Source of the DNA: a virus
Lineage: Duplodnaviria; Heunggongvirae; Uroviricota; Caudoviricetes
DNA length: 64,000 nucleotides
Reading direction: 5' to 3' (one strand)
IMG/VR virus record: IMGVR_UViG_3300036944_000513
Location: 37,644-101,643 of that record
Shown here: positions 30,948-63,579 of the stretch, piece by piece
How positions within the stretch are numbered: position 1 is the first letter of the stretch
Layout of the letters: each line of letters starts with the position of its first letter
The notes under the pieces: generated by a model
Database searches by the model: none
Seen by the model: only the letters and a program-made list of their open reading frames with translations
Told to the model about the DNA's origin: nothing
Made by a program: the position numbers and the translations under genes

Positions 30948-30950
30948 ATA

Positions 30951-31235: not shown

Positions 31236-31253
31236 TACTATGTGTATATAATT

Positions 31254-31899: not shown

Positions 31900-32039
31900 C
31901 TTTCACGCTCATCATAAATAAAATTGCCAGCAGATATGTCCACATACTCCAATTGTAATTAATTACAACATAAGTAGTTCCTGCAACTATTGCAAAATTA
32001 TATAGTAAAACTCCGATAATTTCAACACTTTTCATAATA

Positions 32040-41221: not shown

Positions 41222-41409
41222 TCTGATAATCCTTTAATTAAATTTTGTATTTCTTCTTGGGTTAGATAGTATTTTTGTACCGTAGGTGCATCTTTTAATC
41301 CCAAATTTTCAGAGATTAATTTAACCTCTTTAATATTGAATTTTGGTATTTCACTGACTACCATTGTAAAACGGTATGCTGGGGTTTCACTGATAATAAA
41401 ATGTTTCAT
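41218..41409 (-). CDS. hypothetical protein
   Basis: 63-aa ORF coupled to its neighbours. Confidence 0.4.
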   Translation of the reverse strand: MKHFIISETPAYRFTMVVSEIPKFNIKEVKLISENLGLKDAPTVQKYYLTQEEIQNLIKGLSE

Positions 41410-43946: not shown

Positions 43947-44774
43947 TCAACTGATCGCACATGGAAATACCAATTCCTGAACAATTTCTTCTGCGGAGTA
44001 GCTGCTATAATAGCCCAAGTTTTTAAGTTTAGAATTATCCATGTACATTGACTTCACCTGTACAATTTTATGGAAGTCTGCCTGCGGAATATTCTTGATC
44101 TGAGATGTTGACAATGATATTTTTTTAGCATATCTAATAATATCACCAAAGTTCACTGGAATCCCATTGCCAACATTATAAATTGTATTATACTCGCCAA
44201 CAGTTACAATCATGTTGATTGCTCTACACAAGTCTGATACATGAATATAATCACGATAAAAATCACCGTTATCGTATAATTCAATATCTCTATTTGCGCT
44301 AATTTCATTAACAAGATATGTTAATGCATTTTTCTTTTTCGATACTTTTTTATCGTTTCCACCAACTACATTTGCAAATCTCAAAATGCGATACTTTATA
44401 TTAAAGGTTTCGCAGTATGAGATAAGCAACTGTTCAGCGGTGCGTTTGGTGATGGAATAAAATCCTTTTGGATTACATGGTGATGTTTCTTTTGCTGGCA
44501 ATTCGGTATCACCATAAACAAACCATGAACTAACAAAATTGAAAACTGTGTCAGGATTATCCTTACACTTTTCTAATACTCGCATGAGAGTTGTTAGATT
44601 AGTTTCAATATCTATAAAAGGATTTGTTGAAACCGAATAGTTATCAACTGTAGAAATCATGTATAAAATATCATTTAACTTTGGGGTCAAATCATTTCTA
44701 TCATTGACGATGCACATATACTTAGAAGCATATGCTGAACCAACATACCCCTTTCCACCAAACACATTAATCAT
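43947..44774 (-). CDS. NAD(P)-dependent SDR epimerase/reductase (nucleotide-sugar modifying)
   Basis: GGKGYVG Rossmann motif and a YSITK catalytic YxxxK. Confidence 0.55.
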   Translation of the reverse strand: MINVFGGKGYVGSAYASKYMCIVNDRNDLTPKLNDILYMISTVDNYSVSTNPFIDIETNLTTLMRVLEKCKDNPDTVFNFVSSWFVYGDTELPAKETSPCNPKGFYSITKRTAEQLLISYCETFNIKYRILRFANVVGGNDKKVSKKKNALTYLVNEISANRDIELYDNGDFYRDYIHVSDLCRAINMIVTVGEYNTIYNVGNGIPVNFGDIIRYAKKISLSTSQIKNIPQADFHKIVQVKSMYMDNSKLKNLGYYSSYSAEEIVQELVFPCAIS

Positions 44775-44783
44775 AATAAAATC

Positions 44784-45038
44784 TTATTGGTTAATAAATT
44801 CCATAAATGCAGTTTTAGTCATTCCACCAATCTTACGATGAGTCTCGACTCCATTTTCATCAAGTAAAACCAATGCAGGAATACTTCTGATATTGAATTT
44901 ATTTGCCATTTCAGTATTTTCGTCAATGTCAATATTTTCAAGTTCTACTGGCAACTCTTGAGAAATTCCGGCAATAGTATCTGACAACATTTTACATGGT
45001 TGGCACCATGTTGCATGGAACTTTAAAACTTTTTTCAT
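44784..45038 (-). CDS. thioredoxin-like protein
   Basis: WCQPCK active site; in-frame ATG with an ATGA overlap to the upstream gene. Confidence 0.65.
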   Translation of the reverse strand: MKKVLKFHATWCQPCKMLSDTIAGISQELPVELENIDIDENTEMANKFNIRSIPALVLLDENGVETHRKIGGMTKTAFMEFINQ

Positions 45039-45481
45039 ATCTTTTCCTCTATAATTTTTACATAATCGCTGCAAATAGCATAGCAATTGGTGGGTAACTT
45101 TTTAAATTCTGGATCATTCCATTCGGGTAAAACTGCAATGCTTTTTTGTGTCAACTCTTTATTTGGATATGCCCATATCCATTTATGGCTGGTTATAACA
45201 TAATCGTCATTTTGATGCCAAAAATAATTGTAGGAAGTATCGGTTAGCCAACGTAATGCGCCCAAGTTTTTTGCATGTATCCAAAATCCAATATCGTTTA
45301 AAAACTCCATTGATATTGGATATGTTGGTTCATCATGCCCCAAATAAAGTTCGGAGTGTATTACCCATAAATCTATTTCACAATCAAACCCAAGTTTTCT
45401 TGCTAACAAAATTTGTGCTGGGCTATTTTCTATGGCGGGATTTGGGCCATCAATTAAGCCACGATGGGCAATCAATTTCAT
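45035..45481 (-). CDS. glycerophosphodiester phosphodiesterase-like (GDPD) protein
   Basis: N-terminal IAHRG...EN...E.D..., characteristic of GP-PDE. Confidence 0.5.
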   Translation of the reverse strand: MKLIAHRGLIDGPNPAIENSPAQILLARKLGFDCEIDLWVIHSELYLGHDEPTYPISMEFLNDIGFWIHAKNLGALRWLTDTSYNYFWHQNDDYVITSHKWIWAYPNKELTQKSIAVLPEWNDPEFKKLPTNCYAICSDYVKIIEEKI

Positions 45482-46845
45482 TTTGTATTATTTAAGAAAT
45501 AATTCAAATCCTCTGGAGTACCAATTCCCCACATATTTTCAATTTCTTTGATTCTAATCTTTTTATTATCTTCAATTGCTTCATTGAAAACTGGACACAC
45601 ATAAAATTCATTGTTGACCCGAATATTTTTCTCGATCATTTTTTCCGCATATTTTACATAATCCGAGCCCTTAGACCAATAATATACCCCAACGGTTGCA
45701 TTATCGGAGATTGGTTTTTTCTCTGCAACTTCTGCGACAAACCCATCATCGCCAAGTCTTGCATAACTCCATTTTGGATGAGTGGATTTAAATGTTAACA
45801 TACCAGCATCTATTCCATCTGCTTTAAATGCATACATTACATTGTTGCTGTTCCATTCAATATACTGGTCACTGTTTGCAATGACAAGTGGATCATCGTT
45901 ATCAATCAAATCCTTTGCCAACAAAGTAGTACACGCTGCACCCTCAGTTATCCCATCCAATTGAACAATTTTACAATTTGGAGCAATTAGATTAAGCAAA
46001 TATTGCAAATTATACTTTTCATAATGTGATTTTTGAACTAAGAAAATATAGTTTGCTTGGATATTGAGATTCTCAACAACCACCTGAATCATCGGCTTAC
46101 CTCTAACATCAATTAAAGGCTTTGGAAATGTGTAGCCCTGAGTCTGGAATCTAGAGCCAGCCCCCGCCATAGGAATTAGCACATTTAACTTACTATCTTT
46201 CCATGGAATGGAAGTATTAACAGAATTTTTCATATCATTTATTTTATTAAATATTTTCTCAAATGTAACATCATGGCTATTTTCAACTGCCAATAAATTA
46301 GCGCCGCTATTTAATGCGCCTTCTCTTCCAATGTGACTATCTTCTACGATAATAGTATCTTTGGGCAATACATGCAATGCAGTCATACATTTCCAGTACA
46401 TTTCTGGATATGGTTTTGGGTGTTTAACGTCCTGATTACTTACAAAATAATCAACATACTCAATTACACCAATTTTTAGTAAACTTAATTTTACTGTTTC
46501 TCTGATGCTATTACTTGCAACGGCAATTAAATATCCGGCACTTTTAGCATACTTAAATATATCAATTAATTTTTTATCTATTGGAAAATTAGAAATCAAT
46601 TCCAATGTTGCAGATTGCTTCATTTCCCAAATTAAATTGTGGGAAGAGCTTGGCAATCCTTTTAACTTTGTTAAAATTTCTAATTTTTTAGTAGTATTTA
46701 ATCCATCATATGTAGAAAGATGTTCTTCTCTAGTAATTATATACTTCTCATCAATTTTAGCCAATGACATATTGAGTGTTTGGTAATGTAATTCTCTGCT
46801 TTCGATTAGAACTCCATCCAAATCAAATATTATAAGTTTATTCAT
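45478..46845 (-). CDS. bifunctional HAD-family phosphatase / sugar-phosphate nucleotidyltransferase
   Basis: N-terminal FDLDGVLIES (HAD motif I, beta-PGM-like); C-terminal LIPMAGAGSRF...PKPLIDVRGKPMI (NTP-transferase G-x-G-x-R motif). Confidence 0.6.
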   Translation of the reverse strand: MNKLIIFDLDGVLIESRELHYQTLNMSLAKIDEKYIITREEHLSTYDGLNTTKKLEILTKLKGLPSSSHNLIWEMKQSATLELISNFPIDKKLIDIFKYAKSAGYLIAVASNSIRETVKLSLLKIGVIEYVDYFVSNQDVKHPKPYPEMYWKCMTALHVLPKDTIIVEDSHIGREGALNSGANLLAVENSHDVTFEKIFNKINDMKNSVNTSIPWKDSKLNVLIPMAGAGSRFQTQGYTFPKPLIDVRGKPMIQVVVENLNIQANYIFLVQKSHYEKYNLQYLLNLIAPNCKIVQLDGITEGAACTTLLAKDLIDNDDPLVIANSDQYIEWNSNNVMYAFKADGIDAGMLTFKSTHPKWSYARLGDDGFVAEVAEKKPISDNATVGVYYWSKGSDYVKYAEKMIEKNIRVNNEFYVCPVFNEAIEDNKKIRIKEIENMWGIGTPEDLNYFLNNTK

Positions 46846-46851
46846 AATTAA

Positions 46852-47595
46852 TTATCTATGTAATGCCAATAGACGCATAGGATATCCAATAATATTATCG
46901 GTAGCGAATCTTTTAGCAAAAGTTGCAAATTTATATTTCTCTGGAATTGGGTCATCAATATCTTTATAAACATGATTTACATCATCAAACATATTGCTAG
47001 TCCATTCAAGGTATTTAGGATTAAATACTAATAGATTATCATCAAATGTTTTTCCATCAAAATCTACTCGTTGAGTATATAATTTATTCGGGTCAATTGT
47101 ATTTAAATTGGGAAGATCCCAAATCTGTGAATCATATCGTGTCATAACAACCGCATCATATTTAACCGAATTTTCAATTGAATATTTTTCAACTAGTTTT
47201 GATGCCTGCGAAATAGAATATAGTTGAGATAAAACATTACTATGATTAACTGTCCCAGCAGTCCACCACAAAGTTTTTGTTAAATTTTCATCGTGATATT
47301 TTTTAATCTCAGTATCATATTCAAATATTCTAGGCGGTTCAATCGTTAATATTTTAGGACGAAATACACTATTCAATACTAAAATTGAATCAGATAATTC
47401 GACTGGAACTTTTGAAATCTGTGACCAAGTAGAATTGACATATGTTTTATTCTTTCCAGACCACCATACATGCCCAAACACATCAGTATTATATTTTGAT
47501 AATATCTCATGATGCAATGTATTAACTACACTCCCATATTCAGGAGTATTGCTAACATGTCTAGCTTGCCCATAAAATAGTAGAGCAACTCTCAT
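46852..47595 (-). CDS. hypothetical protein (associated with the sugar locus)
   Basis: 247-aa ORF. Confidence 0.45.
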   Translation of the reverse strand: MRVALLFYGQARHVSNTPEYGSVVNTLHHEILSKYNTDVFGHVWWSGKNKTYVNSTWSQISKVPVELSDSILVLNSVFRPKILTIEPPRIFEYDTEIKKYHDENLTKTLWWTAGTVNHSNVLSQLYSISQASKLVEKYSIENSVKYDAVVMTRYDSQIWDLPNLNTIDPNKLYTQRVDFDGKTFDDNLLVFNPKYLEWTSNMFDDVNHVYKDIDDPIPEKYKFATFAKRFATDNIIGYPMRLLALHR

Positions 47596-52783: not shown

Positions 52784-53083
52784 TTAAACGGGGTGATAGT
52801 CTACGGTTTTTGTTTTGTGCTCTTCATCATGAACATGCAATAGCATGATTGCATAGTGTAACACCTTTAAAATGTCTTTTCTATTTGCACCTTCTTTTTT
52901 ACCATATCTTTGTGCATATTTCATGACATTACCAACAGTAAATCCAACTCCATGCCCAGAGTCAATGATAAACTCCGTTGCTTGAAATTTATCCTGTGAG
53001 TAATGTTCGCCATATGTTTTATCAATATATTCAGTCAATTCTTTGAGTAATTTGTCCTCATTGTATTTGTATTTTATAGCCAT
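52784..53083 (-). CDS. DUF3310-family phage protein
   Basis: GFTVGNVMKYAQRYGKKEG matches the DUF3310 signature. Confidence 0.5.
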   Translation of the reverse strand: MAIKYKYNEDKLLKELTEYIDKTYGEHYSQDKFQATEFIIDSGHGVGFTVGNVMKYAQRYGKKEGANRKDILKVLHYAIMLLHVHDEEHKTKTVDYHPV

Positions 53084-53096: not shown

Positions 53097-53792
53097 TCAA
53101 GTATTTAAAAGCGATTGGCATTTTTCATAAAAACGCTTTTGATTTCCGGGCATTCTGATTTGGAAATTATGATAAGACATTTCTCCAATAGAATCATTGC
53201 CATACGTTGTTCCAATGCCATATACTGGCATGCCATCGGCTAGGGGCCAATTGGGAGCTTCTCTGGGAGCAGCTTCAAATTTGATGGGCATAAACAACTC
53301 AATAGGTATATTACACTCTTCTGCCTTAAAAGTCAATTCTTCTGCCATATCTCCGCGATAAGTTTCTCTAAAAGATGGGCGACCAATTTTATTATAAGTT
53401 TCCATACTAAATGCAATCAAACTTGGAGCAGCAAATACGTGTTGATTATTTTGAATATGATTTGATCGTTGAGCATTACCAATTAAAATTCCTGATGCAG
53501 ATTGGGTGGCGAGGTAATCCAATGTTTTATCGGACAATGGAACACAATCAATATCAAGAATGATAATATTATCATATCCCATATCGTCTCTGGAATCATT
53601 AAGTTTAATAAATTCATCTACTCCATCTCCATTGTTATCAACCGTGGGCATTGGGCATTGCACCCGAATATGTGGAAATTTAGATACATTAAATTTTTCA
53701 ACCACCTGTCGTTGAGCCTCAACTGTTGCCTCATGAATGTTTGGCATAAAAAATGATACGATGCAAGTTCTCATGTGTTTTCTTCTTTCCAT
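53097..53792 (-). CDS. putative GT-A-fold glycosyltransferase (DxD motif)
   Basis: IIILDIDCVP is DxD-like; 231 aa. The start may instead be the second ATG, at 53774. Confidence 0.4.
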   Translation of the reverse strand: MERRKHMRTCIVSFFMPNIHEATVEAQRQVVEKFNVSKFPHIRVQCPMPTVDNNGDGVDEFIKLNDSRDDMGYDNIIILDIDCVPLSDKTLDYLATQSASGILIGNAQRSNHIQNNQHVFAAPSLIAFSMETYNKIGRPSFRETYRGDMAEELTFKAEECNIPIELFMPIKFEAAPREAPNWPLADGMPVYGIGTTYGNDSIGEMSYHNFQIRMPGNQKRFYEKCQSLLNT

Positions 53793-54619
53793 TGTTTAAT
53801 GTGTTCAATAACGTCAATTTTTGGGTTCCAGTTAGGAACATTATTCTTTGTACAAATTGTATCTTGCAACTCATACTTTCTATCCTCGATAAGCTGCAAT
53901 GGATGGGTAAATGCTCTAGCCAATTCCATAATAGATACATTTTTACCGGTTCCAAGATGATATGCATCTTCATAATCAGTAACATTAACTAAAATGTTCA
54001 ATGCGTCAACTGTATCTTCGACTGAGGTAAAATCGCGTTTACGAGTACCATCGCCAACAATTGTAAGTGGCTTATTTTCCAATACTAGCTGCTTGAATTT
54101 TCTAATGACGGTGGTATGTTCTCCGAGATCTTTTTCTCTCATTGAACCATATACGTTGTAGAATTTAACCAGACTATTTTGAATTTTGAATACTGTGCGA
54201 TAGAATTCTAATAGATAATCACACATATATTTTGAGAACGTATATGGATTATTGAATCTATCGGTAAATTCGGTAGTAGAAGATGACGCAAAGAATAAAT
54301 GACCTGAGCCAGTACGTCTAATATATTCACATAATGCAACAGTGCTGTTGTAATTATTTAATAGAGTTTCCTCTGTATATTCAAACGATCTAACAATTCT
54401 GGCACAGTTTGCAAGATGAAAAATCTTATCATACTTATAATCAAACTTGTGGCAAAACTCATCAACGCCCATTACAAAGGTTATGGCTTTATCATTTCTA
54501 TTTTCGAGTTTACCTGTGCTAATATTATCGACTACATGAACTTCATGTCCGCCATCAATAAATTTATCAACAAGATGACTTCCAACAAAGCCAAGCCCAC
54601 CTGTCACTAAAATTTTCAT
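53771..54619 (-). CDS. NAD-dependent sugar epimerase/dehydratase (SDR extended family)
   Basis: MKILVTGGLGFVGSHLV (GxxGxxG) and a YxxxK motif (YTFSK). Confidence 0.7.
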   Translation of the reverse strand: MKILVTGGLGFVGSHLVDKFIDGGHEVHVVDNISTGKLENRNDKAITFVMGVDEFCHKFDYKYDKIFHLANCARIVRSFEYTEETLLNNYNSTVALCEYIRRTGSGHLFFASSSTTEFTDRFNNPYTFSKYMCDYLLEFYRTVFKIQNSLVKFYNVYGSMREKDLGEHTTVIRKFKQLVLENKPLTIVGDGTRKRDFTSVEDTVDALNILVNVTDYEDAYHLGTGKNVSIMELARAFTHPLQLIEDRKYELQDTICTKNNVPNWNPKIDVIEHIKQWKEENT

Positions 54620-55368
54620 TATTTACTTTCTTTCACCCAAGGTAATTTGCCGTTTAAATAATTCGACATTACCTTATTACCATTTATAAAAAATTCTTTT
54701 TGCACAGAATTTGGAGTATTACCTGCTCGGTAATTAACTGAGTATTTATACGTAGAATCAAAATCCAGATACTTATTACTCAAGAAATTATAAATTGCCC
54801 TATCAATTTCCATGACTCCCGGCTGTCTAAATTTCCTATACCAAATTGGCGACATTTCTATTGCAATATTTTTTGGAATAATGTAACAATTTACATCAAC
54901 AAAAAAGTCATTTGAATTTATAACAGTATGCCATTGCCCAAGACTTTCACAGTTATCTTGGCACAAGAAATTGCTATCTGCATCAATGATGTTTCTAAGG
55001 GAATATGCCCATACATTAGGCTTCTTAGTCACTGCATGTACCATTGATGCTACGTGGCCTCTTTCTAACGTGTTATCGTCATCCAGATAGATGACATAAT
55101 CACCTTTCATTAGATAAGTACACGCACCATAAATTCGATGCCCATTGTATCCATCTTCGCCAACTGAATATGGCAAAATAATGAATTCAGTATTTGCGTT
55201 ACCATACTTATAGATAGCGCTCATGGCATCGCCTTGGCGGTGTTTACCATCAACTACTACCAGATGTTGTATGTTCTTATATGTTTGCTCTGCAACGCTT
55301 TTAAGAGTGTACTCCAGAAATTTGGAGCCAGTGGTCGCAGTTATAATTGTTACTAATGGTTCAGACAT
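54619..55368 (-). CDS. family 2 glycosyltransferase
   Basis: TIITATTGSKFLEYTLKSVAEQTY...VVVDG...YLDDDN (GT2 DxD). Confidence 0.65.
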   Translation of the reverse strand: MSEPLVTIITATTGSKFLEYTLKSVAEQTYKNIQHLVVVDGKHRQGDAMSAIYKYGNANTEFIILPYSVGEDGYNGHRIYGACTYLMKGDYVIYLDDDNTLERGHVASMVHAVTKKPNVWAYSLRNIIDADSNFLCQDNCESLGQWHTVINSNDFFVDVNCYIIPKNIAIEMSPIWYRKFRQPGVMEIDRAIYNFLSNKYLDFDSTYKYSVNYRAGNTPNSVQKEFFINGNKVMSNYLNGKLPWVKESK

Positions 55369-56074
55369 TTGATTTATATCCCTTTATCATTCTATCATCA
55401 AAGACCCAAAGATGGTCTATATCATATTTTTTTCTGTAATGCCAAATATCAGGCTCAGAAATTTCAAGTCGCGGCGTAACTGGTTTGGTATGCTTTACTG
55501 GATACTTATCAATGAATGCAACCCAGCCACCTAACTCAGTTCTACCAGTATAAGATTCTAGCACCCATTGCCAAGAATATTCTAATCCATATCCCATACT
55601 ATATGGAGCAGTATCAAAGTCAAATACGCAATTAGCAAATGCTTTTTGCGAGAAAAATGGACACATGATTTCAACAGTATTAGTTATCCTAAAATCATAT
55701 CCTTCATGTTTCAATGTCTGGGGATGCGATATGTAACTATCATGAGTCAAAGTTGGCTGGCATAAATCAAATTTATGATACTTTGCCATTTTAAAAATAT
55801 TGTCTATTGTTTCTGGCGTAGTTTCAATATCATCATCAATATTTCCAATAAACTCATACTTAGAATATATTTCAGGAGTTATATGACGCTTCATCAATGG
55901 GAATTTATATCCCTTGTCTTTTATTACCCACTTTGCTTTATTAATAACTTCGGGTGAGTAATCCGCATCATCATAAATCAATAAAAAAACATCAAAGTTG
56001 TATTGAGAATAATCTCCCCACTTTTGATGTAATGCATCTTTACCGCAACATATTACTAGTAAATTTGGCTTCAT
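55361..56074 (-). CDS. putative nucleotide-diphospho-sugar transferase-like protein
   Basis: LLIYDDAD and GNIDDD acidic motifs; 237 aa. Confidence 0.4.
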   Translation of the reverse strand: MKPNLLVICCGKDALHQKWGDYSQYNFDVFLLIYDDADYSPEVINKAKWVIKDKGYKFPLMKRHITPEIYSKYEFIGNIDDDIETTPETIDNIFKMAKYHKFDLCQPTLTHDSYISHPQTLKHEGYDFRITNTVEIMCPFFSQKAFANCVFDFDTAPYSMGYGLEYSWQWVLESYTGRTELGGWVAFIDKYPVKHTKPVTPRLEISEPDIWHYRKKYDIDHLWVFDDRMIKGYKSNV

Positions 56075-57069
56075 AAAAATACATCCTTAAATTTGCTCAT
56101 TACCAACTCAGGGGAGAATGATTTAACTCTTTTACTCCATTCAATATTAGTCATGCTAGGCAACTCTTGAATTTTATCAATTAAATTTGATTCTTCATAA
56201 AGAAGTCCAGAGTTATTTAACATCAAAAGATGATTTAAGTCATGTCCACCATTAAATGCTAATATCGGCTTATTTAAGTATAGAAATTCTGCAATGGATA
56301 GTCCAAAAGATTCGCCCCGCATTCTAGCATGAATTCCCGCATCGCATGAATTGATAATATCAGTTTTTAATTGAACATCATGAATCTCTTGCGTAAATTT
56401 TACATTTGGATGATTTATCCATGGAGCAGTGCCAATAAACAAGAATACAAATTTATCGGTTTTAGATACCAAATATTCAATTTGCTTTTTAACAAACTCA
56501 ATATCAAAAGTATAATATCCACCAATTCTACCAATTAAAAATTGATCAGGTCTTACGCCAAGCATATCTCTATAATTCTTGGTTGGCTCCGGCAACTTTA
56601 CAATATGTGGAACATATGGAACTTTTTGTTTTGTGATAGAATATACATGCCTAGATAGCCATTCTGAAATATATGCATACCTATCTCCATGCGGCTCAAA
56701 TTCTTGAAACACGCAATGCACAGCAGTCTTGGCAGTATTAATAACTTTCTCATCAAATGCATCATATGGAAGTTCTTGTGCTTTGCAACCAGCCTTAATA
56801 AAATATGCAAGATCGAGATTTTCTTTCTCGCATATGTTACTAACTTCTCTGAATGCATGATCGCCATTATAACCAATAACTTCAAATTCTTCTTTGAATT
56901 TATCTATTACTGCTTGCTCGTTGCCTTCATCTTTTACATATTTGTGATTAGAATTATATAAGATTACGCTTTCATTCCCCAATATTTCTTGGTTATATCT
57001 AGCGTAATCTCGTACTGCAACAGCAACACCTCTATAATTTAGAGTATGTGTATGAAACAGAACTTTCAT
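56071..57069 (-). CDS. GT-B glycosyltransferase (GT4-like)
   Basis: The C-terminal GESFGLSIAEFLYLNKPILA matches the GT4 E-x7-E region. Confidence 0.55.
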   Translation of the reverse strand: MKVLFHTHTLNYRGVAVAVRDYARYNQEILGNESVILYNSNHKYVKDEGNEQAVIDKFKEEFEVIGYNGDHAFREVSNICEKENLDLAYFIKAGCKAQELPYDAFDEKVINTAKTAVHCVFQEFEPHGDRYAYISEWLSRHVYSITKQKVPYVPHIVKLPEPTKNYRDMLGVRPDQFLIGRIGGYYTFDIEFVKKQIEYLVSKTDKFVFLFIGTAPWINHPNVKFTQEIHDVQLKTDIINSCDAGIHARMRGESFGLSIAEFLYLNKPILAFNGGHDLNHLLMLNNSGLLYEESNLIDKIQELPSMTNIEWSKRVKSFSPELVMSKFKDVFL

Positions 57070-58361
57070 CAGTTATCCCATTTTTCCAATACAGACTCGA
57101 TATATGAAAATACCGCATCATTATAATGAGGTGGGCAACCAACAAAGAATACATGACTCAATGCCCGATTTGCATTTGGATATTTTGTATAGTCATCTAG
57201 ATGTTTGTAACCGGGATGCATTAGAATATTGCCAGCAAAATAGTTGCGAGTTTGAATCTTATTTGCTTCTAAGTGTTTTTGCAAACGTTCTTTTTGAATT
57301 TGGCTACGGCAAATAATAGGAACTCCAAACCAACTTGGATCAGCTAGATCATGATGTGATGCAACACGAATTCCGTTGACATGATTAGTCAAAATACTTT
57401 GAAACTTAATTTTATTCTCTCGGCGAGACTTGTCAACAATTTCCATTTTGTCAAGTTGTGCCAATCCGATGGAACCTTGCATATCCAATGGCTTTAGATT
57501 GTATCCCATGTTTGTAAATAGATACTTGTGGTCAATGACGCCCTCATAGCCATCAAGCCACTTATCAAAGCGTTTGCCGCATGTGCCACATGGCAATAGA
57601 TTATTAGCACCTACGCAGTAGCAATCACGACCCCACCATGCAATGCTTCTAACAGTATTCATGAAATCTGCATCATTGGAGCAAATCATTCCACCTTCAC
57701 CCGTAGTAATATGATGAGCAGGATAGAACGAAGTTGTCCATGCAGTATAATATTCAGTTAGAAATTCACCATTCCAGCGTGAACCAAGACTATCGCAGTT
57801 ATCACCAATCAACATGATATCATGGTCAAATGCAAGTTGTTGCAAATAATCCATATCAGGAGGATTGCCCAATACTGGAGACACGAAAATAGCTACAGTT
57901 TTATCAGTAATCTTTTCTGCAATCTTTGTTACATCAAAGTTTAATGTATTGAGTTCAATATCAACGAATACTGGAGTAAGATTGTTTTGTGCAATTGGCG
58001 CAATTGTAGTTGGGAATCCAACGGGAGAAACAATAATCTCTGCACCATCTTCCCATTTATAGAATTTTTTAAGTGCAGTAATAAGCACTAGATTGGCTGA
58101 ACTGCCAGAGTTAACCATGTGTGCATGTTCGACATTGAACATGGTAGCAAACTTCTCTTGAAACTTCTGAACTTGTTCACCTGATGGCAACCATGCACCA
58201 GTTAGAAAAGTCTTCATTGCACCATAAATTTCATTATGATCCCACAATGGGCCAGCATAATAAACGGGACTTACTCCGGGAACAAATGTTTCTTGATTGT
58301 AGGTGTATGGAGGCTTAACAGTTTTGCTAATTTCCATGAGAATTTCATCTAGATTTTCCAT
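57069..58361 (-). CDS. DegT/DnrJ/EryC1-family PLP-dependent enzyme (CDP-4-keto-6-deoxyglucose 3-dehydrase DdhC/RfbH-like)
   Basis: 430 aa with N-terminal region and overall length typical of E1 dehydrases and sugar aminotransferases; SGSSANL. Confidence 0.6.
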   Translation of the reverse strand: MENLDEILMEISKTVKPPYTYNQETFVPGVSPVYYAGPLWDHNEIYGAMKTFLTGAWLPSGEQVQKFQEKFATMFNVEHAHMVNSGSSANLVLITALKKFYKWEDGAEIIVSPVGFPTTIAPIAQNNLTPVFVDIELNTLNFDVTKIAEKITDKTVAIFVSPVLGNPPDMDYLQQLAFDHDIMLIGDNCDSLGSRWNGEFLTEYYTAWTTSFYPAHHITTGEGGMICSNDADFMNTVRSIAWWGRDCYCVGANNLLPCGTCGKRFDKWLDGYEGVIDHKYLFTNMGYNLKPLDMQGSIGLAQLDKMEIVDKSRRENKIKFQSILTNHVNGIRVASHHDLADPSWFGVPIICRSQIQKERLQKHLEANKIQTRNYFAGNILMHPGYKHLDDYTKYPNANRALSHVFFVGCPPHYNDAVFSYIESVLEKWDN

Positions 58362-58439
58362 AATTTTTCATTCTGTAGTCAAAGGGGGTTAATGTAAGCG
58401 TCAATTATAATATAGCTTTAATATAATATCAATACATAT

Positions 58440-58634
58440 TTATATTCTTCCAAGTAGCCAATCTAACATTTCGTCTTCTTGGAGCGCGTAGCCTTGGTCT
58501 TGGTAATATTCTTTACAGTCTTTGCAGTAGTGACCGTATTTGGAGGTGCGATTTTTGTTTTCGTCGAACGATTTGATAGAGAGATAAAAGCCGCCCCCTT
58601 CTTTGATATCGTGACCACAGGTTCCAGTGAGCAT
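58440..58634 (-). CDS. hypothetical Cys-rich protein
   Basis: CGHD...YCKDCKEYY. Confidence 0.4.
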   Translation of the reverse strand: MLTGTCGHDIKEGGGFYLSIKSFDENKNRTSKYGHYCKDCKEYYQDQGYALQEDEMLDWLLGRI

Positions 58635-58819
58635 GAATGATAATCCTCGTATTCTTGTTTTGTTATTTTCTTATACGTGGTATTATTTATCCATTCTATG
58701 CTTTCATTAGTTCTTAGCATACTGGTCAACTCAAATCCTCTACAATAAAGATCATGGGTGAATCCATGTTTCCATACTGTAGTTAAACAAATATAATCGT
58801 CGCGGGTAACACTATCCAT
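58463..58819 (-). CDS. hypothetical protein (frame conflict with 58440..58634; possible frameshift)
   Basis: The in-frame ATG at 58819 avoids overlap with the tRNA. The N-terminal half looks protein-like, whereas the C-terminal half is low-complexity and overlaps the Cys-rich ORF in another frame. Confidence 0.3.
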   Translation of the reverse strand: MDSVTRDDYICLTTVWKHGFTHDLYCRGFELTSMLRTNESIEWINNTTYKKITKQEYEDYHSCSLEPVVTISKKGAAFISLSNRSTKTKIAPPNTVTTAKTVKNITKTKATRSKKTKC

Positions 58820-58837
58820 ATTATTTTTATTATATTT

Positions 58838-58912
58838 TGGTCCGGGATGACGGAATCGAACCGCCATTTAGGGAGTAGAAATCCCCTGTATTATCCATTA
58901 TACGAATCCCAG
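58838..58912 (-). tRNA. tRNA-Arg (anticodon UCU)
   Basis: 75-nt cloverleaf: 7-bp acceptor stem, GTAT/ATAC D-stem, anticodon loop TT-TCT-AC, T-arm GGCGG-TTCGATT-CCGTC, encoded CCA. Confidence 0.85.
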
Positions 58913-59683: not shown

Positions 59684-59760
59684 TGGTGCGACTTGTTGGG
59701 CTCGAACCAACGACCAATCGATTATGAGTCGAATGCTCTGACCAACTGAGCTAAAGTCGC
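59684..59760 (-). tRNA. tRNA-Met (anticodon CAU; elongator-type, or a lysidine-modified tRNA-Ile2)
   Basis: 77-nt cloverleaf: acceptor GCGACTT/AAGTCGC, D-arm GCTC/GAGC, anticodon loop CT-CAT-AA, T-arm GTTGG-TTCGAGC-CCAAC, encoded CCA. Confidence 0.85.
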
Positions 59761-60331: not shown

Positions 60332-60360
60332 ATTGTACCATCGTTTTTCAATGTTGTCAA
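60332..60360 (-). promoter_or_regulatory. sigma70-type promoter (-35 TTGACA, 17 bp, -10 TACAAT)
   Basis: Read on the minus strand, upstream of 59806..60300. Confidence 0.45.
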
Positions 60361-60399
60361 GCATTACATGTATTTATACGACTTTGAAGATAAAAAACA

Positions 60400-60407
60400 T
60401 ATAAATA
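60400..60407 (+). promoter_or_regulatory. T4-type late promoter box TATAAATA
   Basis: Exact box in the divergent intergenic region, heading the plus-strand block 60495..64000. A second box lies on the minus strand at 60371..60378. Confidence 0.45.
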
Positions 60408-60494
60408 TAGGGAATAAGTAAAATTAAATTATAGTGATTGCAGATTTATACTATTGGTTGATTATATCATCTAATCCATTAAATCCGCCCTATA

Positions 60495-60713
60495 ATGTTT
60501 GCACATATTCTAGCATTTCAGCTTTCATCTGTCCACGTTTTACCATATGAAAATTATAATCATTGGTCAAAATTAAAGGAAGTCTGCGAAAGTAAATCGT
60601 CAATCAATGGTAAACCAGTAACCTATTCCGCAAATGAATATGTTAAATCTGGTAGTGGAAATTCGTTCGTTATTTGCAGATGGGCATTAGTGCCATTAAA
60701 GGATAAAAAATGA
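60495..60713 (+). CDS. hypothetical protein
   Basis: 72 aa; ATGA coupling to the next gene. Confidence 0.4.
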   Translation: MFAHILAFQLSSVHVLPYENYNHWSKLKEVCESKSSINGKPVTYSANEYVKSGSGNSFVICRWALVPLKDKK

Positions 60714-61202: not shown

Positions 61203-61811
61203 GTGGCAATATATATGCAAATTGGTGCGGGGGCAGGGGACAGAGATTCTAGATTAGATTTCAGAGACGGATTTACTGAGTTAGTTAAAAAACAAGATAA
61301 AAGTACAATTGATAAAATAATTTTAATCGAGCCCAATTTAACAAATATTCCAGAATTAACCGTATGCTGGAAAGATTATCCACAGGCAGTTATTTATCAA
61401 ATTGGTATATGTCTAGAATCTGCAATGGAAAAGTCTATAACATTTTTTTATGTAGAAGAAGATGCGCCACATTTTCAAGTATTTTCCATGAATAAAGAAC
61501 ATGTCCAAAAACACTATCCAGATAAAGAAATTAAATCAAAAATTGTTCAATGCAAAACGTTAATAGAATTTTTAAATGAAAATTTAAATGGGGCGTCTAT
61601 TGATACATTGGCAATAGACATTGAAGGAATAGACGCCGAATTAGTTTTAGAAACAGATTGGACTAAAATAGATTGCAGATATATTTCCATTGAGCATTTA
61701 CATTTAGGAGATAATTCAGAAAAAGTAAAACAGAAATTGATAGATGCGGGATACAAATATAATGGAGATGGAATAGATCATAAAGGGTATGATTGGTCAT
61801 TTATAAAATAA
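61203..61811 (+). CDS. FkbM-family methyltransferase
   Basis: MQIGAGAGD (SAM-binding glycine loop) and AIDIEGIDAELVL (the FkbM DIEG.E motif); GTG start with a GAGGAT SD. Confidence 0.6.
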   Translation: MAIYMQIGAGAGDRDSRLDFRDGFTELVKKQDKSTIDKIILIEPNLTNIPELTVCWKDYPQAVIYQIGICLESAMEKSITFFYVEEDAPHFQVFSMNKEHVQKHYPDKEIKSKIVQCKTLIEFLNENLNGASIDTLAIDIEGIDAELVLETDWTKIDCRYISIEHLHLGDNSEKVKQKLIDAGYKYNGDGIDHKGYDWSFIK

Positions 61812-61829
61812 ATAATAAAGGATTTTAGA

Positions 61830-62624
61830 GTGAAAAAATATAAAACAATTTTTATATCGGATATCCATTTAGGAACGCGGGATTGTAAAGCAGATAAATT
61901 AATTAATTTCTTAAAAAATAATAGCTGTGAAACATTATATCTAGTCGGGGATATTATTGATGCTTGGAGAATACAGCAAAATAAATGGCAGTGGAAACAA
62001 AGTCACACCAATGTAGTTAGAAGTATACTTAATCATGCTAAAAAGGGAACTAAAATCATTTATGTGACAGGGAATCACGATGAGTTTCTAAGACCACTTA
62101 TTCCTTATAGCATTGGATTTGGTAATGTAGAGATATTAAATCAAGTCACACATGTGGGAGTGGATGGTAAAAAATATCTCGTAATACACGGTGATTTATT
62201 TGATGGCATTACTAAACTGGCTCCGTGGATATCTTTCCTTGGAGATAAAGCGTATGACTTTATTTTAGGAGTTAATAATAAATACAACTGGATTCGCCAT
62301 AAATTTGGATTTGGATATTTTAGTATCAGTCGATATCTAAAGCATAAAGTAAAAACTGCGGTTGATTTTATTTTTAAATTTGAAGAAAATCTTACTAAGT
62401 ATTGTAAGAAACGTGGATTTGATGGCGTGATTTGTGGGCATATTCATCATGCTGAAATAAAAGAAATCGATGGAATTGCTTATATGAATGATGGTGATTG
62501 GGTTGAATCTTGTACCGCTTTGGTAGAACACCATGACGGAAGATGGGAAATTATTACTTGGACATTGGAAAAAGATAATGAAAAGAATTCTAATAATAAC
62601 GGACAATCTACCGGGCCAAATTAA
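61830..62624 (+). CDS. LpxH-family metallophosphoesterase (UDP-2,3-diacylglucosamine pyrophosphatase-like)
   Basis: FISDIHLG, LYLVGDIIDAWRI, YVTGNHDEF, LVIHGDLFDG, ICGHIHHAEIKEI and DGDWVESCTALV track the E. coli LpxH motif order (FIADLHLC, LYILGDLFEAWIGDD, FIHGNRDFL, LIMHGDTL, LIHGHTHRPAVHEL, GAWHTEG). Confidence 0.6.
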   Translation: MKKYKTIFISDIHLGTRDCKADKLINFLKNNSCETLYLVGDIIDAWRIQQNKWQWKQSHTNVVRSILNHAKKGTKIIYVTGNHDEFLRPLIPYSIGFGNVEILNQVTHVGVDGKKYLVIHGDLFDGITKLAPWISFLGDKAYDFILGVNNKYNWIRHKFGFGYFSISRYLKHKVKTAVDFIFKFEENLTKYCKKRGFDGVICGHIHHAEIKEIDGIAYMNDGDWVESCTALVEHHDGRWEIITWTLEKDNEKNSNNNGQSTGPN

Positions 62625-63579
62625 TGGCGTAGTTACTACATTTAGCAATATTGAACGCATCGCTAAGGAAGATGGGTATGAATTTTTTTATATCAATCCT
62701 GAGCAATTTACATATATAAATGCATATGGATATCCAGAAGTAAAATTATCTTTCCCATGGAGAATTGGGAAGAAAATCAGGGAAATAAATCCAGATTATA
62801 TTCATATAGCAACTGAGGGGCCAATAGGTCTGGCTGCAAGTCTATGGTGCTGGAAATATGATTATAAGTTTAATACCAGCTATCACACAAAATTTCCCGA
62901 ATTTTTAAAAGAAGTTTATGGAATACCGACATGGATAACATATCGGTATGTCAAGTGGTTTCATAGACATTCTGGCAAAGTATTAACAACGACTCAGACA
63001 ATGGTCGATGATTTACATGCACATGGATTTAAAACAAATATAATCCCATGGACACGCGGAGTTGACAGAAATATATTTAGAAGCGAGTTACGAAACGTAG
63101 AGAAAGTACATCCACCCGTATTATTAAGTGTTGGCAGAATAAGTAAAGAAAAGGGGCTCGATGATTTTTGTGAATTGAAATATCCAAAGGCAAAAAAGAT
63201 TATAGTTGGTGATGGGCCATATCGCAATGAATTGCAAGAAAAGTATCCAGACATAGAATTTGTTGGAACTAAAACTGGCGTAGAACTTGCAACTTATTAC
63301 GCAAATGCTGATGTGTTTGTATTTACTAGTAAACATGATACATTTGGGATAGTGATGATAGAAGCATTGGCAGTCGGCACACCAGTGGCGGCATATCCTG
63401 TTGCTGGCCCAAAAGATATTATACAGAATAGAAAGACTGGATATATGCACAGTGATTTAAAGTATGCGGTGAAACAGTCTCTTAGTATAAATAGAAAATT
63501 GATTGAATCCGAAAGTTTAAAATGGTCTTGGGATAATTGCTGGAAAATATTTAAAGAAAATTTAATAAAGGTAAAATAA
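62578..63579 (+). CDS. GT4-family glycosyltransferase
   Basis: N-terminal KRILIITDNLPGQINGVVTTFSNI is typical of GT4 (SqdX- and glycolipid-synthase-like); the C-terminus has E-x7-E (TFGIVMIEALAVGTPV). Confidence 0.65.
   Translation: MKRILIITDNLPGQINGVVTTFSNIERIAKEDGYEFFYINPEQFTYINAYGYPEVKLSFPWRIGKKIREINPDYIHIATEGPIGLAASLWCWKYDYKFNTSYHTKFPEFLKEVYGIPTWITYRYVKWFHRHSGKVLTTTQTMVDDLHAHGFKTNIIPWTRGVDRNIFRSELRNVEKVHPPVLLSVGRISKEKGLDDFCELKYPKAKKIIVGDGPYRNELQEKYPDIEFVGTKTGVELATYYANADVFVFTSKHDTFGIVMIEALAVGTPVAAYPVAGPKDIIQNRKTGYMHSDLKYAVKQSLSINRKLIESESLKWSWDNCWKIFKENLIKVK

What the first reader, a model, noticed from the sequence alone, without database searches (positions are those of the whole stretch)
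53097..58361. Six-gene glycan biosynthesis locus downstream of gene 45
Immediately after the gp45 and DUF3310 genes lie six consecutive genes. They encode a putative GT-A glycosyltransferase, an SDR epimerase/dehydratase, a GT2, a further nucleotide-sugar-transferase-like protein, a GT4-like GT-B enzyme, and a DegT/DdhC-family PLP enzyme of the type that makes 3-deoxy or amino sugars. This position corresponds to where T4 places its DNA alpha-glucosyltransferase, in the region downstream of gene 45. No dCMP hydroxymethylase or beta-gt is seen at the usual uvsX-43 location. The locus could specify an unusual DNA hypermodification sugar (a deoxy or amino hexose rather than glucose). Alternatively it could glycosylate virion proteins or remodel host surface polysaccharide.
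Basis: inference. Interest (0 to 1): 0.65.

Follow-up and report, generated by a model that had tools for sequence, protein, structure and literature searches.

The report
Phage sugar-building gene island
A T4-like aquatic phage carries a real six-gene operon, plus a second cluster 6 kb away, that should make a rare 3,6-dideoxy sugar and assemble it into a glycan; this kind of island is already known in such phages, nothing here points to DNA as the target, and the target remains unknown.

Summary
Six overlapping minus-strand genes at 53097-58361 encode an E1/DdhC-type 3-dehydratase, a GT4-like GT-B enzyme, two Pfam-poor GT-A glycosyltransferases, a GT2 and an SDR. All six are under purifying selection as strong as gp44 and gp45.

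The locus is larger than reported. E1's usual partner, a short SDR next to E1 in 76 of 80 viral loci, lies at 43947-44774. It sits beside a HAD-mutase/nucleotidyltransferase fusion next to gp43.

Relatives carry different sugar cassettes at the same two sites. The GT2 and GT-A pair (g3 and g1) is a clade-wide core, better conserved than the DNA polymerase.

The DNA-hypermodification reading is not supported:
- No thymidylate-synthase homologue, dCTPase, TET/MT, or alpha-gt/beta-gt relative was found in the window.
- None was found in 2 Mb of related loci either.

No flippase, polymerase or any membrane protein occurs in the islands.

The best reading is a soluble NDP-3,6-dideoxyhexose and oligosaccharide assembly module acting on a conserved non-DNA acceptor. 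Virion protein is slightly favoured over host envelope glycan. This is a new member of a known kind, the "LPS-like" gene clusters of cyano- and pelagimyophages.

The parts
57069..58361 (-). g6: E1/DdhC/RfbH-type PMP-dependent, Fe-S NDP-4-keto-6-deoxyhexose 3-dehydratase (430 aa)
   Evidence: Pfam DegT 1.8e-69. NCBIfam RfbH scores 367 bits, below the 423 cut-off. PDB 3bcx E1 matches at 1.4e-71. 'FYPAHH' places His at the PLP-Lys position. Cys189, 247, 249 and 261 are invariant, and Cys258 is present in 79 of 81 phage homologues.
56071..57069 (-). g5: GT-B, GT4-like glycosyltransferase (332 aa)
   Evidence: Its own Pfam hits are 22-24 bits, just under the cut-off. PF00534 is matched by 25 of 30 family members. 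E253-x7-E261 is invariant. More than 690 homologues were found, some on 160-kb phage-size contigs. The family profile finds no PDB sequence.
55361..56074 (-). g4: DUF707, GT-A-fold glycosyltransferase (237 aa)
54619..55368 (-). g3: GT2 glycosyltransferase (249 aa), a clade-wide core gene
   Evidence: Pfam PF00535 1.9e-08. Homologues of 44-56% identity occur in 60 of 80 loci that carry g1.
53771..54619 (-). g2: compact extended SDR (282 aa); candidate 4,6-dehydratase or epimerase, role unresolved
   Evidence: Pfam Epimerase 4e-34. Best PDB relatives are UDP-hexose 4-epimerases. It has an S-T-T-E motif and YxxxK, with an unusually short Ser-to-Tyr spacing.
53097..53774 (-). g1: glycosyltransferase of a new GT-A family (225 aa from the ATGA overlap; the ORF runs to 53792), a clade-wide core gene
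58404..58444 (-). Candidate promoters in the 78-nt gap upstream of g6: TTGATA-17-TATAAT and a T4-late-like TATAAATA
   Evidence: The sigma-70 match is 11 of 12 at 58432-58404. TATAAATA lies at 58437-58444. Neither motif class is enriched over shuffles, so the argument rests on position only.
43947..44774 (-). SDR275: short SDR and the usual partner of E1; candidate 4-ketoreductase that finishes the 3,6-dideoxy sugar
   Evidence: Homologues of 60-67% identity sit immediately downstream of E1 in close relatives. An SDR of this blastp family lies next to E1 in 76 of 80 viral loci and in 26 bacterial loci. It has an RmlB-like scaffold, but the T-D-E catalytic pair reads S-W-F.
45478..46845 (-). 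Fusion of a HAD (beta-phosphoglucomutase family) domain and a sugar-1-phosphate nucleotidylyltransferase (455 aa)
   Evidence: Pfam HAD_2 1.6e-26 and NTP_transferase 2.8e-10. NCBIfam bPGM family and RmlA-long. In L181 and L185 it lies in one island with a g1 homologue.
45035..45481 (-). 148-aa protein of unknown function that travels with the fusion gene
   Evidence: No family hit. A homologue (phmmer 1.2e-41; 47% identity) lies between the fusion gene and g1 in L181 and L185.
46852..47595 (-). 247-aa protein of unknown function; weak relatives occur in other glycan islands
   Evidence: No Pfam or NCBIfam hit. Weak phmmer hits (1.7e-07 to 6e-05) fall on island genes beside g1 or E1. hhalign finds no link to g1 or g4.

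Best explanation
This is a phage-encoded, entirely soluble glycan factory, split over two sites of the replication gene module.

**Proposed pathway**
1. The HAD-mutase/nucleotidyltransferase fusion (45478-46845) charges a hexose phosphate onto a nucleotide. This step is inferred.
2. A 4,6-dehydratase makes the NDP-4-keto-6-deoxyhexose. The enzyme is either g2 or a host enzyme, and this is unresolved.
3. g6 removes the 3-hydroxyl. It is an E1-type enzyme with PMP and a [2Fe-2S] cluster. The enzyme class is shown. The electron donor is not encoded nearby, so g6 probably uses general cellular ferredoxin or flavodoxin reductases, as SpnQ-type homologues do.
4. The short SDR at 43947-44774 reduces the 4-keto group to give an NDP-3,6-dideoxyhexose. 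This is inferred from its constant pairing with E1.
5. Four glycosyltransferases (g5 GT-B; g4, g3 and g1 GT-A) build an oligosaccharide.

**Modularity**
g3 and g1 are the conserved core of the system across the phage clade. The sugar-making and extra transferase genes are swapped between relatives like serotype cassettes.

**Acceptor**
The acceptor is not DNA. It is most likely a macromolecule common to the whole clade. My ranking is:
- the phage's own virion proteins, about 40%;
- a host envelope glycan or lipid-linked intermediate, about 35%;
- DNA, about 7%;
- something else, the remainder.
For: **Enzyme identities.** The E1 catalytic His and four of the Cys are invariant in 81 phage homologues, and a fifth Cys is in 79 of 81.

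**Operon structure and selection.** The genes overlap, and dN/dS is 0.03-0.07.

**E1-SDR pairing.** The pair is adjacent in 76 of 80 viral loci and in 26 bacterial loci. In the closest relatives the pair is adjacent, and it is either beside gp45 or on the gp43 side.

**Link between the two clusters.** Cluster B genes lie in one island with g1 in L181 and L185.

**Variable cassettes at fixed sites.** L133 and L134 carry an aminotransferase, acetyltransferase, SDR and GT2-methyltransferase island before gp45. L135 and L136 carry FkbM, a deacetylase, PhyH and two GT2 genes before gp43. L048 has 14 or more genes.

**Core status of g3 and g1.** g1 lies 1.4-3 kb upstream of gp43 in 68 of 80 loci. 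g3 is present in 60 of 80. Their identity is 44-56%, against 41-44% for gp43.

**Solubility.** No predicted membrane span occurs in any window cluster gene, and no multi-span protein occurs in the islands of four relatives.

**Apparent phage specificity of g1.** No NCBIfam, Pfam or PDB sequence match exists. The best viral structural match is a cyanophage S-SRM01 protein.

**Precedents from giant viruses.** Soluble, early-expressed capsid-glycosylating transferases and clade-specific glycogene clusters are described in giant viruses.
Against: - No 4,6-dehydratase is firmly identified.
- No E3-type reductase or ferredoxin was found in the window, nor as a frequent neighbour elsewhere.
- g6 scores below NCBIfam's RfbH equivalog cut-off, so the nucleotide and sugar specificity are open.
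- The locus lies among replication genes, not structural genes. Virion glycosylation has never been shown for a T4-like phage (one search found nothing).
- 3,6-dideoxyhexoses are best known from LPS O-antigens.
- The published view of such clusters in cyano- and pelagimyophages is host surface modification.
- The conservation of g1 and g3 could equally reflect a universal host acceptor.
- Only 64 kb of the genome was seen.
Confidence: 0.4

Rival explanations
1. Host envelope remodelling (the classical 'LPS auxiliary metabolic gene' reading). The phage enzymes act at the cytoplasmic face on host undecaprenyl-linked O-antigen, capsule or EPS units. They add a dideoxyhexose-containing side chain. 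The host flippase, polymerase and ligase then export it. This changes the cell surface, blocking superinfection or keeping progeny from adsorbing to debris.
For: - RfbH, GT2 and GT4 enzyme types are typical of O-antigen clusters.
- 3,6-dideoxyhexoses are classically O-antigen sugars.
- The same reading is given in the literature for pelagimyophage and cyanomyophage clusters.
- Isolated Kyanoviridae (S-B05, S-H68) carry roughly 20-gene clusters with an E1 homologue, RmlB and RmlC-like genes and GT11.
- A sigma-70-like promoter fits early expression.
- A neighbouring LpxH-like and glycolipid-synthase-like pair suggests an envelope theme.
Against: - No initiating phosphoglycosyltransferase, Wzx, Wzy, ABC transporter or WaaL was found. 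No multi-span membrane protein occurs in the window clusters or in the islands of four relatives, and none appeared among the conserved neighbour families scanned.
- g1 and g3 are more conserved than the DNA polymerase across the clade. That is unexpected if acceptors were host-specific O-units.
- g1 has no detectable cellular family.
Confidence: 0.35
2. DNA hypermodification. The transferases glycosylate a modified base in phage DNA with a deoxy-sugar-containing glycan, protecting it from restriction and CRISPR.
For: - The cluster lies within the replication module, and the core g3-g1 pair usually lies just upstream of the DNA polymerase gene.
- Known phage DNA glycans can be mono- to trisaccharides built by several transferases related to LPS enzymes.
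- Cassette diversification would suit an arms race with modification-dependent nucleases.
Against: - Every described pathway needs a base handle, made by a thymidylate-synthase homologue or by an MT plus TET pair. These are usually clustered with a dCTPase, a kinase and GT-B transferases.
- None of these is in the window.
- T4 gp42, gp56, alpha-gt, beta-gt and Dam find nothing in the window or in 2.0 Mb of related loci.
- Relatives carry an ordinary dCMP deaminase and dUTPase.
- Sugar O-methyltransferases, an N-acetyltransferase and a deacetylase in sister islands are tailoring steps typical of surface glycans.
- Three of the four transferases are GT-A.
Confidence: 0.07
3. The glycan is attached to a small molecule or glycolipid, or the E1-SDR pair simply diverts host NDP-sugar pools, rather than decorating a macromolecule.
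For: - Some E1-bearing viral contigs hold only the E1-SDR pair with no transferase nearby (L032, L033).
- Others carry dehydroquinate-synthase-like and kinase-like genes (by inspection of the sequences only) or a Trp halogenase.
- E1 homologues also serve natural-product deoxysugar pathways (PDB 9wvy hit).
Against: - Four transferases in one translationally coupled operon point to an oligosaccharide.
- No aglycone pathway is evident in the window.
Confidence: 0.12

Closest known systems
Salmonella/Yersinia 3,6-dideoxyhexose pathway (ddhA-D/rfbFGHI plus abe/prt)
   Same: The E1-type 3-dehydratase has the diagnostic His-for-Lys change and the Cys cluster. In relatives it is followed by a short SDR, as rfbH is followed by abe or prt. 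A sugar-1-phosphate nucleotidylyltransferase is present.
   Different: There is no E3 (DdhD/RfbI) reductase and no recognisable CDP-glucose 4,6-dehydratase. The nucleotidyltransferase is fused to a HAD mutase-like domain. In this phage the genes are split over two sites. g6 falls below the RfbH equivalog cut-off, so the nucleotide carrier is unknown.
'LPS / cell-wall synthesis and modification' gene clusters of cyanomyoviruses and pelagimyophages (P-SSM2, S-SCSM1, S-SCSM2R, S-B05, S-H68; PMC7029224, PMC12801897)
   Same: These are T4-like aquatic phages. They carry hypervariable islands of nucleotide-sugar enzymes and glycosyltransferases. An E1 homologue of 54% identity is present in S-B05 and S-H68. 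The function has not been tested experimentally.
   Different: In the pelagimyophages the islands are described mostly within the host-recognition (tail-fibre) region, and in S-B05 the cluster lies beside an annotated endosialidase. Here they lie at two fixed sites inside the replication module. They are anchored by a conserved GT2 plus novel GT-A pair that isolated cyanophages largely lack (only S-SRM01, at 25%).
Virion glycosylation systems of chloroviruses, mimiviruses and mycobacteriophages
   Different: No glycosylated virion protein is known for any T4-like phage. The locus is not next to structural genes. The fold match is generic GT-A at 8-13% identity.
Phage DNA glycosylation clusters (T4 alpha-gt/beta-gt; RB69/DLP3 arabinosyl-5hoC; MT/TET-dependent glycan BGCs)
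   Same: They sit among early or replication genes of T4-like phages. They can include sugar-nucleotide synthesis genes and several transferases.
   Different: There is no thymidylate-synthase homologue, dCTPase, nucleotide kinase, MT or TET. No homology to alpha-gt or beta-gt exists. The transferases here are mostly GT-A rather than GT-B.

Membership tests
E1 / DdhC / RfbH NDP-4-keto-6-deoxyhexose 3-dehydratase | DegT/AAT type-I fold with full-length similarity to solved E1 | tested here: met
   PDB 3bcx matches at 1.4e-71 over residues 25-426. Pfam DegT 1.8e-69.
E1 / DdhC / RfbH NDP-4-keto-6-deoxyhexose 3-dehydratase | His replaces the Schiff-base Lys (E1 His220), which marks a PMP-dependent dehydratase rather than an aminotransferase | tested here: met
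   'FYPAHHIT' aligns with E1 'FYPAHHIT', and with 'FYPAKHIT' of the H220K mutant 3bb8. The His is present in 81 of 81 phage homologues.
E1 / DdhC / RfbH NDP-4-keto-6-deoxyhexose 3-dehydratase | Cysteine set for the [2Fe-2S] cluster (distinguishes E1 from ColD) | tested here: met
   Cys189, 247, 249 and 261 are invariant, and Cys258 is in 79 of 81. The window reads RDCYC...C..C against E1's RDCYC...C...C. Cluster binding itself was not tested.
E1 / DdhC / RfbH NDP-4-keto-6-deoxyhexose 3-dehydratase | Reaches NCBIfam RfbH equivalog cut-off | tested here: not met
   367 bits against a cut-off of 423. It is a relative, not a certified equivalog, so CDP specificity is unproven.
E1 / DdhC / RfbH NDP-4-keto-6-deoxyhexose 3-dehydratase | Dedicated E3 (DdhD/AscD) iron-sulfur flavoprotein reductase partner | tested here: not met
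   No Fer2, FAD_binding_6 or NAD_binding_1 protein was found in the window. None appears among frequent neighbours in viral or bacterial loci.
Complete 3,6-dideoxyhexose pathway | NDP-hexose 4,6-dehydratase | tested here: inconclusive
   g2 keeps an S-T-T-E motif like the T-x-E of GMD and UXS, but has a shortened substrate loop and its best hits are 4-epimerases. SDR275 has S-W-F in place of T-D-E. A host enzyme may supply the intermediate.
Complete 3,6-dideoxyhexose pathway | 4-ketoreductase (abe/prt-like short SDR) adjacent to E1 | tested here: inconclusive
   A roughly 275-aa SDR follows E1 in 76 of 80 viral loci and 26 bacterial loci. In this window it lies about 12 kb away, at 43947-44774. 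Its activity is untested.
Phage DNA glycosylation / hypermodification cluster | Enzyme that creates the base handle (dCMP hydroxymethylase, 5hodCMP synthase, dUMP hydroxymethylase, or C5-MT plus TET/JBP) | tested here: not met
   No Thymidylat_synt, TET or MT domain was found in the window. T4 gp42 tblastn gives E > 1 in the window and no hit in 166 related loci, 2.0 Mb. The rest of the genome was not available.
Phage DNA glycosylation / hypermodification cluster | dCTPase or other exclusion of the canonical nucleotide, and homology to known DNA glycosyltransferases | tested here: not met
   T4 gp56, alpha-gt and beta-gt give no significant hit.
O-antigen / capsule biosynthesis gene cluster | Nucleotide-sugar genes plus several glycosyltransferases in one operon | tested here: met
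O-antigen / capsule biosynthesis gene cluster | Initiating phosphoglycosyltransferase and export/polymerisation genes (Wzx/Wzy or ABC transporter, WaaL) | tested here: not met
   No predicted transmembrane protein occurs in either window cluster, and no multi-span protein occurs in the islands of L048, L005, L046 or L081. None appears among the conserved island families scanned.
Virus-encoded virion glycosylation system | Soluble virus-encoded transferases, with glycan genes varying by clade | tested here: met
   compared with the giant-virus review.
Virus-encoded virion glycosylation system | Glycan demonstrably attached to capsid or tail proteins | not testable with these tools
   This needs purified virions. 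The structural genes are outside the window.
GT-A fold glycosyltransferases (g1, g4) | Rossmann-like GT-A fold with a DxD metal/nucleotide motif | tested here: met
GT4 (GT-B, retaining) glycosyltransferases (g5) | Glycos_transf_1 domain and EX7E motif | tested here: inconclusive
   Its own scores of 22.5 and 23.6 bits fall below the cut-offs of 26.4 and 27. 25 of 30 family members hit PF00534 at E <= 1e-3. E253-x7-E261 is invariant. The family profile finds no PDB sequence, and no structure model was made.

The most novel reading that the evidence does not exclude
A large clade of aquatic T4-like phages decorates its own virions with phage-made oligosaccharides, here containing a 3,6-dideoxyhexose. 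The priming transferases g3 and g1 are conserved core genes. The sugar cassettes are exchanged between lineages, giving phage 'serotypes' analogous to bacterial O-antigens and to the clade-specific glycans of giant viruses. An even more radical variant is the same glycan placed on DNA through an unknown base handle. That variant is not strictly excluded, because only 64 kb of the genome was seen, but I put it at about 7%.
Probability: 0.35. Interest if true: 0.75.

Novelty: new member of a known kind. Interest (0 to 1): 0.45.

Why it matters
Clusters of "LPS-like" genes have been noted in marine T4-like phages since the first cyanophage genomes were sequenced. Their target has never been determined.

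This locus makes the question more testable in three ways:
- It defines a minimal conserved pair of transferases, g3 and g1.
- It defines a portable two-enzyme dideoxy-sugar module, E1 plus a short SDR, found in more than 500 IMG/VR stretches.
- It documents a pattern of cassette exchange at fixed genomic sites.

The outcomes would have different consequences:
- If the acceptor is the virion, this would be the first glycan coat on a T4-like phage. It would be a new axis of phage diversity, bearing on grazing, adsorption and defence evasion.
- If the acceptor is the host envelope, this would be direct evidence for surface remodelling by lytic phages.

g1 is also a well-populated glycosyltransferase family that no profile library (Pfam, NCBIfam, PHROGs) or solved structure searched here covers.

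Tried and rejected
- **DNA similarity to known phages.** Megablast of the locus and of 44-53 kb against 50,697 phage records found no match. The phage is known only from metagenomes. Its closest DNA polymerases are cyanomyovirus ones at 49%.
- **Sequence searches for g1 and g5.** PDB sequence searches with g1 and g5 singly, and with family profiles, gave nothing. Only structure prediction placed g1.
- **The 247-aa protein.** hhalign against the g1 and g4 profiles, and of g1 against g4, found no relationship. u247 and u148 remain unassigned.
- **Search for an E3 reductase or ferredoxin.** This covered the window, including ORFs of 55-94 aa, and neighbour families. Nothing was found.
- **ORFs not scanned.** Eight plus-strand shadow ORFs (for example 2776-3309 and 11850-12383) were left out of the Pfam scans because they look non-coding.
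- **Promoter and terminator scans.** Counts were no higher than in shuffles. Only the position of the hits upstream of g6 is suggestive.
- **Host inference from E1.** The nearest cellular E1 genes (55-62% identity) are spread over Bacteroidota, cyanobacteria, Fibrobacteria, Bdellovibrionota and even an archaeal MAG, so there is no host signal.
- **Cluster-member names.** These added nothing.
- **Unavailable resources.** The afdb50 fold library was unavailable. Freeman 2023 and the Cell Reports version of Pyle 2024 were not held.
- **Positional homology with T4 alpha-gt.** Considered and rejected as meaningful evidence.

Full report
**1. The observation**

The six ORFs are at the stated coordinates, all on the minus strand. 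In transcription order they are:

| Gene | Coordinates | Length | Assignment |
|---|---|---|---|
| g6 | 57069-58361 | 430 aa | E1-type 3-dehydratase |
| g5 | 56071-57069 | 332 aa | GT4-like GT-B glycosyltransferase |
| g4 | 55361-56074 | 237 aa | DUF707, GT-A fold |
| g3 | 54619-55368 | 249 aa | GT2 |
| g2 | 53771-54619 | 282 aa | extended SDR |
| g1 | 53097-53792 | 231 aa | new GT-A family |

DUF3310 (52784-53083), gp45, gp44, gp62 and regA follow on the same strand.

Successive genes overlap by 1-8 nt (TGATG, ATGA, TAATG). The ATGA overlap with g2 puts the likely start of g1 at 53774, giving 225 aa. That is also how g1 was called on a related contig.

A 26-kb ENA metagenome contig (L132) has the same genes in the same order at 89-95% amino-acid identity. 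dN/dS is 0.03-0.07 for all six genes. The replication genes gp45 and gp44 give 0.030 and 0.025. These are real, constrained genes in one operon.

A 78-nt gap upstream of g6 holds TTGATA-17-TATAAT and a TATAAATA. Neither motif class is enriched over shuffles in this AT-rich DNA.

**2. What each gene is**

*g6.*
- It is a DegT-fold enzyme (1.8e-69). Its best solved relative is the Yersinia E1 dehydrase (3bcx, 1.4e-71).
- Where aminotransferases have the PLP lysine, g6 reads FYPAHHIT, exactly as E1 does. The engineered H220K mutant 3bb8 reads FYPAKHIT.
- It also has the RDCYC...C..C cysteines.
- In 81 phage homologues the His and four Cys are invariant, and a fifth Cys is present in 79.
- So g6 is a PMP- and Fe-S-type 3-dehydratase and not an amino-sugar enzyme.
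- It scores 367 bits against NCBIfam RfbH, below the cut-off of 423. The nucleotide carrier is therefore open.

*g3 and g2.* g3 is a GT2 and g2 an extended SDR.

*g1.*
- It has no hit in Pfam, NCBIfam, PHROGs or PDB sequences.
- It has more than 400 homologues.
- It has a conserved DxD motif (D82 invariant, D80 in at least 90%).

*g5.*
- It is just below the Pfam cut-offs itself.
- 25 of 30 family members match Glycos_transf_1, and E253-x7-E261 is invariant. EX7E is the GT4 hallmark by my own knowledge.
- Its family profile finds no PDB sequence.

**3. The locus is bigger than reported**

Between gp43 and the Hsp20 gene lies a second cluster:
- a 275-aa SDR (43947-44774);
- a thioredoxin;
- a 148-aa unknown protein;
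- a 455-aa fusion of a beta-phosphoglucomutase-family HAD domain with a sugar-1-phosphate nucleotidylyltransferase (45478-46845);
- a 247-aa unknown protein.

*Link through the SDR.* E1 homologues occur in 524 IMG/VR stretches. In 76 of the 80 loci fetched, E1 has beside it an SDR of the same blastp family as the window's 275-aa SDR, at a median of 178 nt downstream. Close relatives carry a homologue of 60-67% identity immediately after E1. The same pairing holds in 26 bacterial loci. This mirrors rfbH followed by abe or prt in Salmonella (own knowledge).

*Position of the pair in close relatives.* In L048 the adjacent E1-SDR pair sits beside DUF3310 and gp45. In L005, L032 and L033 it sits on the gp43 side. 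Only in this window's sub-lineage are the two genes separated.

*Link through the fusion gene.* In L181 and L185 the HAD-NTP fusion, the 148-aa gene and a weak relative of the 247-aa gene lie in one island with g1.

I therefore treat 43947-47595 as part of the same system.

**4. Proposed chemistry**

1. Hexose phosphate to NDP-hexose, by the fusion protein. This is inferred.
2. NDP-hexose to NDP-4-keto-6-deoxyhexose.
   - g2 keeps an S-T-T-E motif resembling the T-x-E of GMD and UXS-type enzymes. However, it has a shortened loop, and its best matches are epimerases.
   - SDR275 has S-W-F where RmlB has T-D-E, so it is not a dehydratase.
   - A host enzyme may supply this intermediate.
3. 3-deoxygenation by g6.
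4. 4-keto reduction by SDR275.

No E3-type reductase or ferredoxin is present in the window. The search included ORFs down to 55 aa. None appears among frequent neighbours either. E1 homologues such as SpnQ work with general cellular reductases (own knowledge), which would explain the absence.

**5. Comparative picture**

The phage is a T4-like myovirus without close sequenced relatives. Its DNA polymerase is 49% identical to those of cyanomyoviruses.

Related metagenomic phages carry glycan islands at the same two sites, but with different content:
- L133 and L134 have, before gp45: a distant g1 relative (31%), a g5 homologue (56%), an acetyltransferase, a true DegT aminotransferase, an SDR, a GT2-methyltransferase fusion and further GT2 genes.
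- L135 and L136 have, before gp43: an FkbM methyltransferase, a polysaccharide deacetylase, PhyH, two GT2 genes and a g1 homologue.
- L048 has an island of 14 or more genes.
- Other recurrent island families are rhamnosyl-O-methyltransferase-like and FkbM methyltransferases, 2OG oxygenases and GT2 enzymes.

Against this variability, two genes are constant:
- g1 is found 1.4-3 kb upstream of gp43 in 68 of 80 loci.
- g3 accompanies it in 60 of 80.
- Both are 44-56% identical to the window proteins, whereas gp43 in the same loci is only 41-44% identical.

None of the window cluster proteins has a predicted membrane span. The islands of four relatives contain no multi-span protein, no flippase, no polymerase and no initiating transferase.

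**6. What is the acceptor?**

*DNA.*
- All described phage DNA-glycan systems start from a base handle. This is made by a thymidylate-synthase homologue or by a methyltransferase plus TET pair. It is usually clustered with a dCTPase, a kinase and GT-B transferases.
- None of these is in the window.
- T4 gp42, gp56, alpha-gt, beta-gt and Dam give no tblastn hit in the window (E > 0.1) or in 166 related loci totalling 2.0 Mb. gp43 (3e-135) and gp45 (8e-14) are recovered as controls.
- The positional analogy with T4 alpha-gt is weak. In T4, genes 47, 46 and rpbA separate alpha-gt from gene 45, and the core pair normally lies beside gene 43.
- O-methyl, N-acetyl and deacetylase tailoring in sister islands is typical of surface glycans.
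- I rate DNA at about 7%. It cannot be set to zero because only 64 kb of the genome was seen.

*Host envelope.*
- This is the standard reading for such clusters in pelagimyophages and cyanomyophages.
- It fits the enzyme families and the known occurrence of 3,6-dideoxyhexoses.
- The complete lack of membrane machinery, the above-polymerase conservation of g1 and g3, and the absence of a cellular family for g1 all argue against it.

*Virion protein.*
- This fits the soluble enzymes, a conserved acceptor, and clade-specific cassettes.
- Giant viruses offer a precedent. Their capsid-glycosylating transferases are soluble and early-expressed, and their glycogene clusters are clade-specific.
- Mycobacteriophages offer another, as cited.
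- It is unprecedented for T4-like phages, and the locus is not beside structural genes.

I favour virion protein only slightly, at about 40% against about 35% for host envelope.

**7. Novelty**

- rfbH/ddhC is already listed among viral auxiliary metabolic genes.
- An E1 homologue is annotated in cyanophage S-H68, within a roughly 20-gene sugar cluster shared with S-B05.
- LPS-like clusters are well described in these phage groups.

The locus is therefore a new member of a known kind. Four points add something:
- the split pathway;
- the portable E1-SDR module;
- the conserved g3-g1 core at a fixed site in the replication module;
- g1 as a populous GT-A family that no profile library or solved structure searched here covers.

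**8. Verdict**

Interest is moderate.

Noticed in passing
window 61203-63579 (+): An FkbM methyltransferase (61203-61811) is followed by an LpxH-like metallophosphoesterase (61830-62624) and a GT4 (62533-63579). The GT4's best NCBIfam hits are glycolipid synthases (GlcN-phosphatidylglycerol synthase, monoglucosyl-diacylglycerol synthase). The pair looks like a PlcP/Agt-type phospholipid-to-glycolipid remodelling module carried by the phage. A 68% homologue of the phosphoesterase lies in related locus L005.
   Followed up: partly
window 58838-58912 (-) and 59684-59760 (-): tRNA-Arg(TCT) and tRNA-Met(CAT) genes lie just upstream of the glycan operon. The 134-aa ORF at 58463-58867 overlaps the tRNA-Arg gene, so at least its 5' part is probably not coding.
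   Followed up: partly
window about 21300-31900 (-), also 5258-5482: Ten or more small ORFs (about 55-95 aa) form a paralogous family. They share a C-terminal '...KFAELIVKEC...(K)HFGVEE' signature and have no Pfam match. This is an expanded gene family of unknown function.
   Followed up: no
window 25236-25721 (-) and 22876-23385 (-): There is a strong match to the Thoeris inhibitor Tad3 family (PF25185, 8.8e-36), with an HD-domain protein nearby. This indicates an anti-defence gene in the early region.
   Followed up: no
window 6001-7000: GC content is 0.49, against about 0.36 for the rest of the window. The patch coincides with a 276-aa ORF (6020-6850) that has no family match. It may be a recent foreign insertion.
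   Followed up: no
window 40781-41409 (-): T4 has imm, gene 42, beta-gt and segA between gene 43 and uvsX. This phage has only a 63-aa ORF and a staphylococcal-nuclease-like gene there.
   Followed up: yes
window 60360-60500: This is the strand-switch region between the minus-strand early block and a plus-strand block. It has TATAAATA motifs facing both ways (60371-60378 on the minus strand, 60400-60407 on the plus strand) and an 11-of-12 sigma-70-like match.
   Followed up: no
window 31254-31475 (-); 34098-35144 (-); 32574-33371 (-); 19170-19919 (+): Other genes noted: a weak Lar-like restriction-alleviation hit, an RNA ligase with a PHA02142 OB domain, an SPFH/Band-7 protein, and a NUMOD3 homing-endonuclease-like ORF on the opposite strand.
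   Followed up: no
loci L088 and 7 other bacterial loci (L082-L131 set): In 8 bacterial genomes the E1 homologue is followed directly by a roughly 577-aa protein that looks, by inspection only (not scanned against a family library), like an acetolactate-synthase/YerE-type thiamine-diphosphate enzyme. This suggests branched-chain (yersiniose-type) dideoxy sugars in those organisms. It is absent from the phage loci.
   Followed up: no
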